Source: a virus (lineage: Duplodnaviria > Heunggongvirae > Uroviricota > Caudoviricetes). Taken from it: a DNA stretch of 10,202 bases. The stretch lies in IMG/VR virus record IMGVR_UViG_2671180921_000016. One strand, written 5' to 3'. Shown here one piece after another: positions 2,770-2,992 of the stretch. Position 1 is the stretch's first letter. Every line of letters begins with the position of its first letter. The translations under genes and the position numbers were made by a program. The notes beneath the pieces were generated by a model, which was not told where the DNA came from, did not search any database, and was given only the letters and a program-made list of their open reading frames with translations.

Positions 2770-2992
2770 CTGTTCACCTTTTGATATTTTCTCTTTTAAT
2801 TCATAATGTTAAGGGGTGAACAGTTTCACAAAAACTATTCACCAACTGTTCACCACTGTTCACCCTTGAAGCTCAATAAACAATCAAAAAAGTGAACAGT
2901 GAATAGTTTGGTGAACAGTTCATAAATAACTGTTCACCCTATAATATACTGATATAAAAGATATTTATGACAGGGTGAACAGTGGTGAACAG
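2770..2992. repeat. Iteron array / putative replication origin: about 9 copies of GGTGAACAG (and complement CTGTTCACC) in both orientations with AT-rich spacers
   Basis: Copies at about 2770-2778(-), 2815-2823(+), 2846-2854(-), 2856-2864(-), 2892-2899(+, AGTGAACAG), 2910-2918(+), 2930-2938(-), 2974-2982(+), 2984-2992(+). AT-rich tracts such as ATAATATACTGATATAAAAGATATTTATGA. Lies immediately 3' of the primase gene, the usual ori position in SaPI/PICI-type elements. Confidence 0.75.

What the first reader, a model, noticed from the sequence alone, without database searches (positions are those of the whole stretch)
2770..2992. Iteron-type origin immediately 3' of the primase gene
About nine copies of the 9-mer GGTGAACAG in both orientations, interspersed with AT-rich DNA, form a classic iteron plus unwinding-element layout directly downstream of the primase/NTPase gene. 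The same arrangement is seen in SaPI and PICI satellites, which supports autonomous replication after induction and the satellite classification. An isolated GGTGAACA also occurs at 6993-7000 near the Xis/AlpA promoter.
Basis: partly seen in the sequence, partly recalled or inferred. Interest (0 to 1): 0.45.

Follow-up and report, generated by a model that had tools for sequence, protein, structure and literature searches.

The report
Replication origin of an E. coli phage satellite
The repeats are real and are almost certainly the replication origin of a phage-inducible chromosomal island, using the same 8-base binding site as satellite phage P4; it is a clear example of a known kind of origin, not a new one.

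Summary
GGTGAACAG (reverse complement CTGTTCACC) occurs 8 times exactly and twice with one mismatch in 2770-2992. This is a 66% A+T intergenic stretch between the stop of a minus-strand replication gene (3006-4838) and the next gene (2473-2718).

- The octamer TGTTCACC is the "ori type 1 repeat" annotated in phage P4.
- The last ~100 residues of the adjacent protein are homologous to the solved P4 alpha origin-binding domain (1KA8, E=1.8e-24).
- The layout is two inverted copies of the P4 ori1 core module: an iteron run, 13-14 bp, an inverted iteron, a 35-36 bp spacer of about 80% A+T, then one or two iterons.
- Gene order matches EcCICFT073, whose pri-rep-ori segment was shown experimentally to replicate.
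- In 84 related loci the octamer class follows a short segment of the C-terminal domain. It follows neither the helicase core nor the downstream gene.

Caveats. The "primase" has no recognisable primase domain. The island has one iteron cluster, not P4's bipartite ori1 plus crr. The isolated copy at 6993 is not distinguishable from chance. No replication was tested.

Verdict: new member of a known kind, low to moderate interest.

The parts
2762..2992 (.). Complete iteron array (proposed origin core). It contains 10 clear and 2 degenerate copies of TGTTCACC/GGTGAACA, arranged as two inverted P4-ori1-like modules around a 26-bp central spacer.
   Evidence: (inverted repeats I1 and I2)
2770..2778 (-). 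Iteron GGTGAACAG, exact. The adjoining 2762-2769 CCTTCACC is a degenerate partner; relatives have a full tandem pair here.
2779..2814 (.). A+T-rich spacer (36 bp, 81% A+T); candidate unwinding element of the left module.
2815..2823 (+). Iteron GGTGAACAG, exact.
2835..2864 (-). Run of three iterons: 2835-2843 GGTGAATAG (1 mismatch), then 2846-2854 and 2856-2864 exact. 2846-2864 is the 19-mer GGTGAACAGTGGTGAACAG, which also occurs in P4 ori1.
2865..2890 (.). Central spacer, 26 bp, 73% A+T, between the two inverted modules.
2891..2918 (+). Run of iterons: 2891-2899 AGTGAACAG (1 mismatch), 2898-2906 AGTGAATAG (degenerate), 2910-2918 exact.
2930..2938 (-). Iteron GGTGAACAG, exact. With 2910-2918 it forms the palindromic unit GGTGAACAG-N11-CTGTTCACC, repeated 95 bp away at 2815-2843.
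   Evidence: direct repeat D4
2939..2973 (.). A+T-rich spacer (35 bp, 80% A+T). It holds the least stable 30-mer of the window and has the same length and position as the 35-bp, 83% A+T spacer of P4 ori1.
2974..2992 (+). Tandem iteron pair GGTGAACAGTGGTGAACAG, a 19-mer identical to P4 9310-9328, lying 14 bp after the rep stop codon.
2725..2761 (.). A+T-rich block just beyond the last iteron. It is conserved in relatives whatever gene follows. Possible unwinding element or promoter of the downstream module; function undecided.
   Evidence: alignment; no consensus promoter or terminator found
3006..4838 (-). Replication initiator/helicase gene ('pri-rep'): 610 aa from GTG 4838, or 605 aa from ATG 4823 as RefSeq annotates the 99%-identical copy. 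Domains are D5_N, DUF5906 (SF3 helicase core) and Pox_D5. No Zn-ribbon or Toprim domain.
3009..3335 (-). Coding region of the C-terminal origin-binding domain (aa 502-610), homologous to P4 alpha OBD, PDB 1KA8.
3081..3122 (-). Codons for EYMKRKTKHGLRSN (aa 573-586), the segment whose sequence and length track the iteron class in 84 loci. It is inferred to be the end of the recognition helix plus the wing hairpin.
   Evidence: fold assignment is inference because the AF2 model was unusable

Best explanation
This is the vegetative replication origin of a Gram-negative phage-inducible chromosomal island (PICI). The island is integrated between tRNA-Ile (ileX) and nfeF in E. coli.

Proposed mechanism.
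1. A helper phage switches on the island's unidirectional operon (int, alpA, and on to rep).
2. The rep product is an SF3-type helicase with a C-terminal winged-helix domain of the P4 alpha type. It binds the TGTTCACC iterons through that domain.
3. The iterons form two inverted P4-ori1-like modules. Bound protein therefore brackets spacers of about 80% A+T, which melt.
4. The helicase loads itself there.
5. Because the protein has no recognisable primase domain, priming and synthesis are presumably done by host DnaG and Pol III. The island's own SSB gene lies just downstream.

What is shown: the repeats, their non-random clustering, the homology of the protein domain, the identity of the octamer and module layout with P4 ori1, the synteny with EcCICFT073, the protein-DNA covariation, and the selective conservation of iterons.

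What is inferred: binding, melting site, helicase self-loading, host priming and helper dependence.
For: (1) TGTTCACC is the sequence annotated as 'ori type 1 repeat' in P4 record X51522, in both ori and crr.

(2) Residues 502-598 of the adjacent protein match PDB 1KA8, a 100-residue chain that aligns to P4 alpha's C-terminal Pox_D5 region (alpha ~670-768); I identify it from memory as the P4 origin-binding domain of Yeo et al. 2002, whose title is cited in PMC2777425. E=1.8e-24. Residues 150-600 are 50.7% identical to P4 alpha.

(3) The layouts correspond.
- P4 ori1: [G G G]-14-[C]-35 bp (83% A+T)-[G G].
- Window 2891-2992: [g G]-13-[C]-35 bp (80% A+T)-[G G].
- Window 2771-2864: the inverted copy.
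- The 19-mer GGTGAACAGTGGTGAACAG is shared.

(4) EcCICFT073 has the same gene order: DUF4222, pri-rep, a 289-bp gap, an 85-aa ORF, SSB, PerC. Its array architecture is the same but built from TGTCTACC. Its cloned rep-ori segment maintained a temperature-sensitive plasmid; deleting rep abolished this and deleting ori reduced it (PMC6092414).

(5) In 84 loci from Enterobacterales, the 400-500 bp after the rep stop always carries a multi-copy octamer, in six classes. The class is predicted without exception by the segment after 'EYG.EY' in the C-terminal domain.

(6) Natural domain swaps exist. Pairs with 93-98% identical helicase cores differ in the last 30-90 residues (23-30% identity in the final block) and have different iterons. 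L029 and L032 differ by one base in every iteron copy.

(7) The next gene downstream varies freely within an iteron class. The 81-aa ORF here is 86% identical to that of EcCICFT073 even though the iterons differ.

(8) Iteron columns are 87% conserved and spacer columns 53% in 11 loci from 8 genera, Mann-Whitney p=1.3e-12.

(9) The 287-bp intergenic region is present in 687 of 5426 complete E. coli genomes and is never under an annotated feature. One copy lies on a 10,790-bp circular record consisting of a whole PICI-like element.

(10) There is only one cluster in the 17-kb island.
Against: No experiment exists on this element: binding, melting and initiation are all inferred.

In P4 itself the iteron cluster that sits immediately 3' of alpha is crr, not the initiation site ori1. 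Position alone therefore does not prove that initiation starts here.

In EcCICFT073 the ori deletion 'significantly reduced' rather than abolished colony formation.

The protein lacks the primase domains of P4 alpha, so the priming step is unexplained.

The structure models of the full protein and of the C-terminal domain were of low confidence. Assigning the specificity segment to the wing therefore rests on the general winged-helix topology.

The circular 10.8-kb record could be an excised non-replicating circle or an assembly product.
Confidence: 0.85

Rival explanations
1. The array is a crr-like auxiliary cis element. It would be bound by the Rep protein and required in cis, but actual initiation would occur at a second site elsewhere, as in the bipartite ori1/crr replicon of P4.
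For: In P4 the cluster immediately 3' of alpha is crr, while ori1 lies 4.5 kb away. An exact copy plus a one-mismatch inverted partner lie inside the rep gene at 4277-4285 and 4308-4316.
Against: No second cluster exists in the window or in the whole 17-kb island plus flanks. The layout matches P4 ori1 more closely than crr: there is no 120-bp direct repeat, and the [run]-13/14-[inverted]-35 bp A+T-[pair] module is present. In EcCICFT073 the rep gene plus the 3' region alone sufficed for plasmid maintenance. The intragenic copies are not conserved in the 75%-identical relative L003.
Confidence: 0.07
2. The repeats are mainly a transcriptional operator or copy-control array. They would serve autoregulation, or control of the downstream SSB/ProQ/PerC/packaging module, by Rep or another island protein, rather than act as an origin.
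For: The array sits between two co-oriented gene blocks with no terminator-like site. A conserved A+T-rich block follows the last iteron. Iterons in plasmids are known to double as copy-control sites (established knowledge of iteron plasmids, reviewed in PMC4980987, listed).
Against: The downstream gene is unrelated among loci that share the iteron class, and conserved between loci with different classes. The array therefore belongs to rep, not to the downstream module. No sigma-70-like promoter was detected. The homologous arrays in P4 and EcCICFT073 are replication elements. A regulatory side role is not excluded and is compatible with the main explanation.
Confidence: 0.06
3. The repeats are a chance feature of A+T-rich intergenic DNA, or a non-functional remnant such as a decayed mobile repeat.
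For: None beyond the low G+C of the region.
Against: No shuffle out of 200 reaches the observed counts. The array is conserved in position across genera, with iterons conserved and spacers not. The octamer changes in concert with the adjacent protein domain.
Confidence: 0.01

Closest known systems
Origin of Gram-negative PICIs; prototype EcCICFT073 (Fillol-Salom et al. 2018, ISME J, PMC6092414)
   Same: The array lies immediately 3' of the pri-rep gene in a unidirectional int-alpA-...-DUF4222-rep operon. The intergenic gap is about the same length (287 vs 289 bp) and is followed by the same 81/85-aa ORF (86% identical), then SSB and PerC. The order and orientation of iterons and A+T-rich spacers are the same. 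The Rep proteins are 49% identical.
   Different: The iteron sequence is TGTTCACC here and TGTCTACC/TATCTACC in EcCICFT073. The C-terminal domain is only 37% identical and has a different specificity segment (KRKTKHGLRSN vs TRKVKGVTQTN). This island sits at ileX-nfeF and carries TerS-like genes rather than the capsid genes of EcCICFT073. This origin is untested.
Phage P4 ori1 (type I iterons, bound by alpha protein)
   Same: The octamer is identical, and usually the 9-mer GGTGAACAG too. A 19-mer tandem pair is shared. The module is the same: an iteron run, 13-14 bp, an inverted iteron, 35 bp of ~80% A+T, then a tandem pair. The origin-binding domain is homologous.
   Different: P4 ori1 is 2.1 kb upstream of the alpha start (4.5 kb from crr, which is the cluster 3' of alpha), is a single module, and has three type II repeats nearby. 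None of those repeats occurs here: the only window hit at <=1 mismatch is at 8006. P4 also needs crr in cis (record annotation, and my own knowledge of the P4 literature, which could not be retrieved). P4 alpha carries Zn-ribbon and Toprim primase domains that are absent here. No Cnr (DUF5375) homologue was found upstream.
Phage P4 crr (cis replication region)
   Same: It occupies the same position, immediately 3' of the alpha/rep gene. It uses the same iterons in both orientations, with a 35-bp spacer after a tandem pair.
   Different: crr is two direct 120-bp repeats and works together with a distant ori1. Here the two modules are inverted, abut each other, and form the only cluster in the element. 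P4 has an annotated terminator between alpha and crr; none was detected here.
SaPI origins (Staphylococcus aureus pathogenicity islands) and their Rep helicases
   Same: The origin lies immediately 3' of rep, with iterons flanking an A+T-rich region (as summarised in PMC6092414). The helicase core is distantly homologous to PDB 7OLA/7OM0 'DNA primase', E=2.6e-10; I recall these as SaPI Rep structures, from memory and not checked.
   Different: There is no similarity in iteron sequence. SaPIs have separate Pri and Rep proteins and belong to a different host lineage. The resemblance is in organisation only.

Membership tests
Gram-negative PICI replication origin (Fillol-Salom 2018) | Located immediately 3' of the replication initiator (pri-rep) gene | tested here: met
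   The array starts 14 bp after the rep stop codon.
Gram-negative PICI replication origin (Fillol-Salom 2018) | Sets of iterons flanking an A+T-rich region | tested here: met
   There are 10-12 iterons around three spacers of 73-81% A+T. The order of elements is the same as in EcCICFT073.
Gram-negative PICI replication origin (Fillol-Salom 2018) | Element context: int, alpA and pri-rep transcribed in one direction, in a small island at a specific attachment site | tested here: met
   int 7694-9124, excisionase/AlpA-like 6633-6851 and rep 3006-4838 are all on the minus strand. The island is ~17 kb, between tRNA-Ile and nfeF. PerC, SSB and TerS-like genes are present.
Gram-negative PICI replication origin (Fillol-Salom 2018) | The rep-ori segment drives autonomous replication; helper-phage induction | not testable with these tools
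   There is only circumstantial support: a 10,790-bp circular record consisting of a PICI-like element with a 99%-identical origin.
P4-type iteron origin (type I iterons recognised by an alpha-type origin-binding domain) | Iteron octamer TGTTCACC in multiple copies and both orientations | tested here: met
   There are 8 exact and 2 one-mismatch copies. The octamer is identical to the annotated P4 'ori type 1 repeat'.
P4-type iteron origin (type I iterons recognised by an alpha-type origin-binding domain) | Cognate initiator carries the alpha C-terminal origin-binding (winged-helix) domain | tested here: met
   The match to 1KA8 has E=1.8e-24 over residues 502-598. Pox_D5 is matched at 501-596.
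P4-type iteron origin (type I iterons recognised by an alpha-type origin-binding domain) | The protein actually binds the iterons | not testable with these tools
   The support is indirect: the iteron class covaries with the C-terminal segment in 84 loci, and natural domain swaps show the same link.
P4 replicon proper (satellite phage P4 and close relatives) | Bipartite cis elements: ori1 plus crr several kb apart | tested here: not met
   There is a single cluster in the window and in the whole island.
P4 replicon proper (satellite phage P4 and close relatives) | Alpha protein with an N-terminal Zn-ribbon and Toprim primase | tested here: not met
   P4 alpha matches Zn_Ribbon_Prim and Toprim_3. 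The window protein matches only D5_N, DUF5906 and Pox_D5. Its N-terminal 150 aa do not align with the alpha motifs CPVCGG and EGYATA.
P4 replicon proper (satellite phage P4 and close relatives) | crr made of two 120-bp direct repeats; type II repeats at ori1; Cnr regulator upstream of alpha | tested here: not met
   The longest direct repeat is 29 nt. There are no type II repeats in the region. Neither upstream ORF resembles Cnr/DUF5375.

The most novel reading that the evidence does not exclude
This PICI uses exactly the P4 type I iteron and a P4-type origin-binding domain. P4-like satellites and this class of PICI could therefore cross-recognise each other's origins in the many Enterobacterales that carry both. 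P4 alpha could fire, or titrate, the PICI origin, and the reverse could also happen. On this reading, the C-terminal wing segment plus the adjacent iteron array would be a swappable specificity cassette, exchanged by recombination to escape such cross-talk or incompatibility.

The evidence shows the shared specificity elements and the cassette-like swaps. It does not show any cross-activation or selection for escape.
Probability: 0.25. Interest if true: 0.5.

Novelty: new member of a known kind. Interest (0 to 1): 0.27.

Why it matters
The result lets a widespread intergenic region be annotated as a satellite origin. The region is in about 13% of complete E. coli genomes and is never annotated. 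The result also names the origin's probable initiator. It links two satellite families usually treated as separate, P4 and the Gram-negative PICIs, through one shared origin-recognition system. Finally, it points to a 14-19-residue segment of the initiator as the likely determinant of iteron specificity, which can be tested directly by domain swaps. It does not change the picture of how such elements replicate.

Tried and rejected
- P4 primary literature (Ziegelin 1993, Tocchetti 1999, Lindqvist 1993) could not be retrieved. P4 biochemistry is therefore cited from the GenBank annotation and from memory.
- A search for the octamer in papers returned only unrelated primer sequences. The supplement of PMC6092414 holds no iteron sequences.
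- AlphaFold2 of the full protein was poor (pLDDT 41.6). Only residues ~16-125 were confident, as a small alpha/beta domain. Foldseek of that model against the PDB gave nothing better than E=0.27, so the N-terminal domain stays unassigned.
- AlphaFold2 of the C-terminal domain alone was unusable (pLDDT 37.7). It could not place the specificity segment on the fold.
- No DnaA box, GATC cluster or IHF consensus lies in 2650-3050. No sigma-70-like promoter or intrinsic terminator lies in 2400-3200.
- No Rfam family and no tRNA was found in the window.
- No Cnr homologue was found.
- Whole C-terminal-domain identity did not separate the iteron classes. Only the short segment did.
- Cognate octamers outside the origin are only weakly enriched, 0.4 per locus against 0.22 expected, and not at conserved places.

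Full report
**Observation.** The stretch 2770-2992 holds eight exact copies of GGTGAACAG: 2770(-), 2815(+), 2846(-), 2856(-), 2910(+), 2930(-), 2974(+) and 2984(+). Two more copies have one mismatch, at 2835(-) and 2891(+). Two further degenerate copies, at 2762-2769 and 2898-2906, become visible when relatives are aligned. In the whole 10.2-kb window the exact octamer TGTTCACC occurs 11 times against 0.35 expected, and none of 200 dinucleotide-preserving shuffles reaches that. Eight of the 11 lie in this 223-bp stretch. G+C falls to 0.32-0.36 here from about 0.5 in the flanks. The three spacers between iteron groups are 81%, 73% and 80% A+T, and 2939-2969 is the least stable 30-mer of the window by nearest-neighbour energy.

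**Context.** All genes of the window lie on the minus strand:
- tyrosine integrase, 7694-9124
- a 241-aa ORF, 6985-7710
- an excisionase/AlpA-like HTH protein, 6633-6851
- an Icd-like region
- a 106-aa ORF
- a DUF4222 protein, 4820-5119
- a 605/610-aa protein, 3006-4838
- the 287-bp gap that holds the repeats
- an 81-aa ORF, 2473-2718
- SSB, 2033-2476
- a ProQ/FinO-family protein, 1452-1976
- PerC

The window is 99.4% identical to E. coli EC12, where the island is about 17 kb and sits between tRNA-Ile and nfeF. Further downstream, outside the window, the island has two terminase-small-subunit-like ORFs.

**The adjacent protein.** Pfam finds D5_N, DUF5906 (the SF3 helicase core) and Pox_D5. Residues 502-598 match PDB 1KA8 with E=1.8e-24. 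That entry is labelled 'putative P4-specific DNA primase'; it aligns to P4 alpha's C-terminal Pox_D5 region and, from memory, is the P4 origin-binding domain of Yeo et al. [quoted passage not shown]' (reference list). Residues 150-600 are 50.7% identical to P4 alpha. P4 alpha also carries Zn_Ribbon_Prim and Toprim_3 domains. The window protein does not. Its first ~150 residues do not align with the alpha motifs. They fold, in the only confident part of an otherwise poor AlphaFold model, as a small alpha/beta domain with no significant PDB neighbour. 'Primase' is thus an annotation label here. What can be shown is a helicase with an origin-binding domain.

**Identity of the repeat.** The P4 GenBank record annotates 'ori type 1 repeat' elements in both the origin (9086-9809) and crr (4291-4590). 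Their sequence is TGTTCACC, the same octamer as here. The layouts also correspond:
- P4 ori1 reads [G G G]-14-[C]-35 bp (83% A+T)-[G G].
- Window 2891-2992 reads [g G]-13-[C]-35 bp (80% A+T)-[G G].
- Window 2771-2864 is the same module inverted: [C]-36 bp (81% A+T)-[G]-13-[c C C].

The 19-mer GGTGAACAGTGGTGAACAG occurs twice in the window and once in P4 ori1. The array is therefore two P4-ori1-like modules head to head, which agrees with the long imperfect inverted repeats found.

In P4 the cluster that lies immediately 3' of alpha is crr, made of two direct 120-bp repeats, and ori1 is 4.5 kb away. Here there is only one cluster in the window and in the entire island. There is no 120-bp direct repeat, no type II repeat and no Cnr homologue. 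The element uses the P4 recognition system but is not a P4 replicon.

**The closest characterised system.** EcCICFT073 in E. coli CFT073 has the same order: int, alpA, Icd-like, DUF4222, pri-rep, a 289-bp gap, an 85-aa ORF, SSB, PerC. Its Pri-Rep is 49% identical to the window protein. Its gap carries an array with the same order and orientation of repeats and A+T-rich spacers, but built from TGTCTACC/TATCTACC. Fillol-Salom et al. [quoted passage not shown] They showed that the cloned EcCICFT073 rep-ori segment maintains a temperature-sensitive plasmid. Maintenance was lost on deleting rep and significantly reduced on deleting ori. The same paper notes four allelic Pri-Rep variants in E. coli PICIs. 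The window holds another allele of this known arrangement.

**Comparative test of the protein-DNA link.** A scan of one genome per species returned 80 related loci from Enterobacterales. I added the window, P4, EcCICFT073 and the induced element vB_KppS-Ant. The last has a 74%-identical protein and 11 iterons at 11721-11949, right after the stop codon. In all 84 loci, the 400-500 bp after the rep stop carries a multi-copy octamer. Six classes occur:

| Octamer | Loci |
|---|---|
| T[G/A]TTCACC | 65, including P4 |
| T[G/A]TCTACC | 7 |
| TCTCCACC | 7 |
| TGTCCGCC | 3 |
| TGTCCACC | 1 |
| TATCCACC | 1 |

Overall identity of the C-terminal domain does not separate the classes. A short segment after 'EYG.EY' does so without exception:

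| Segment after 'EYG.EY' | Iteron class |
|---|---|
| [KR][KRH][TS]K.G[ILM][RQ][ST]N, no insertion | TGTTCACC class |
| KKSTKGN[MI]RSN | T[C/A]TCCACC |
| ..CT.GPDKGR..SN | TGTCTACC |
| ESKKKATRGRIQSN | TGTCCGCC |
| ERATRGPSKGNYQSN | TGTCCACC |
| KG[VR][TR]QTN | the EcCICFT073 type |

In this window the segment is EYMKRKTKHGLRSN, residues 573-586, encoded at 3081-3122.

**Natural swaps.**
- L009 has a helicase core 93% identical to the window protein, but its final 30-residue block is 23% identical and its iterons are TGTCTACC.
- L014 against L007 (core 98%) behaves the same way.
- L017 against L012 (core 96%) behaves the same way.
- L029 and L032 have cores 98% identical and last 60 residues 67-70% identical. 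Every iteron copy, at the same array positions, differs by the same single base: TGTCCGCC against TGTCCACC.

The gene that follows the array does not track the class. Within the TGTTCACC class it is an 81-aa ORF, a major capsid gene, an HTH protein, a membrane protein and others. The 81-aa ORF of the window is 86% identical to that of EcCICFT073 although the iterons differ. The array therefore belongs to the 3' end of rep. The simplest reading is that the C-terminal domain reads the octamer. Placing the specificity segment at the end of the recognition helix plus the wing hairpin is inference from the general winged-helix topology, because the model of the domain was unusable.

**Selection and distribution.** In an alignment of 11 TGTTCACC-class arrays from eight genera, iteron columns are 87% identical to the window and spacer columns 53% (Mann-Whitney p=1.3e-12). 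The 287-bp intergenic region is found in 687 of 5426 complete E. coli genomes, with 668 covering at least 80% of it, and never under an annotated feature. One copy, 99% identical, lies on a 10,790-bp circular record, pZ1323HEC0475-3. That record consists of an integrase, an HTH regulator, an Icd-like gene, DUF4222, rep, the array and capsid-related genes. This is what an excised and possibly replicating island would look like, though an assembly artefact cannot be excluded.

**Mechanism proposed.** Helper-dependent activation of the operon produces Rep. This step is known for EcCICFT073 through AlpA and is inferred here. The C-terminal domains of Rep bind the iterons of both inverted modules. 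The flanked spacers of about 80% A+T, or the conserved A+T-rich block at ~2725-2761 seen, melt. The SF3 helicase then loads. Host primase and polymerase complete initiation, because no primase domain is present. There is no terminator-like site between rep and the array, whereas P4 has one annotated. Operon transcription probably crosses the origin, and whether that matters is unknown. I put 0.85 on the statement that this is the Rep-bound origin of the island.

**Rivals.** A crr-like auxiliary role (0.07) is suggested by position in P4. It is disfavoured by the single cluster, the ori1-like module and the sufficiency of rep plus the 3' region in EcCICFT073. A mainly regulatory operator role (0.06) is disfavoured because the downstream gene is interchangeable; a secondary copy-control role remains possible. 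Chance is excluded.

**The isolated copies.** TGTTCACC also occurs at 1362, 4277 and 6993. Three outside the array is at the upper edge of what shuffles give: their mean total is 0.35 and their maximum 3. The 6993 copy lies in the last codons of the 241-aa ORF and is absent from L086, which has the same rep allele. The 4277 copy, with a one-mismatch inverted partner at 4308, is retained in the 99%-identical allele but not in the 75%-identical L003. Across loci, cognate octamers outside the origin are only weakly enriched. I do not count these copies as parts of the feature.

**Verdict.** The feature is a new, untested member of a known kind, the Gram-negative PICI origin. Its added point is that the recognition system is the P4 type I iteron plus an alpha-type binding domain, carried on a swappable cassette. 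Interest is low to moderate.

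Noticed in passing
window 3006-4838 (-), residues 1-150: The 'DNA primase family protein' lacks the Zn-ribbon and Toprim domains of P4 alpha. Its N-terminal ~110 residues are predicted with fair confidence as a small alpha/beta domain that has no significant structural neighbour. How this class of PICI primes DNA synthesis is open.
   Followed up: partly
L086 = NZ_CP148328.1 (pZ1323HEC0475-3), 1-10790: A 'plasmid' in a complete E. coli genome is in fact a whole PICI-like element: int, HTH, Icd-like, DUF4222, rep, a 99%-identical iteron array, a protease/capsid fusion and tail fragments. 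Several hits in the protein search also come from contigs of about 10.8-11.3 kb. This suggests such elements are often assembled as separate circles.
   Followed up: partly
window 2725-2761: An A+T-rich block immediately after the last iteron pair is conserved across genera whatever gene follows. The consensus scans found neither promoter nor terminator there.
   Followed up: partly
window 4277-4285 (+) and 4308-4316 (-): An exact iteron and a one-mismatch inverted partner, 22 bp apart, lie inside the rep coding region. The pair is retained in the 99%-identical allele (L086) but not in the 75%-identical L003.
   Followed up: partly
window 5439-6623 (-): The 394-aa ORF is probably not one gene. 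Only its last ~60 residues match the Icd-like family. RefSeq annotation of the 99.4%-identical EC12 copy splits the region into a 63-aa Icd-like gene, a pseudogene and three small opposite-strand ORFs. The window also aligns to EC12 in two pieces, with a length difference of about 380 bp.
   Followed up: no
window 2473-2718 (-) and L002 11005-11259 (-): The 81-aa ORF next to the origin (phrog_1231, unknown function) has a second, diverged copy about 3.5 kb further on in the same island. The island also has a second PerC pseudogene. It may be a composite of two elements.
   Followed up: no
window 1452-1976 (-): A ProQ/FinO-family RNA-chaperone-like gene sits between SSB and PerC in this island. 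EcCICFT073 has no such gene at that position.
   Followed up: no
L002 9715-10604 (-), outside the window: Two adjacent ORFs match terminase small subunit (phrog_57). This fits a PICI that redirects pac-type packaging.
   Followed up: no
L029 vs L032 (Serratia), 300 bp after the rep stop: Two arrays at equivalent positions differ by the same single base in every iteron copy (TGTCCGCC vs TGTCCACC). The two Rep proteins differ almost only in their last 60 residues. It is a clean natural case of concerted change in a binding site and its protein.
   Followed up: yes
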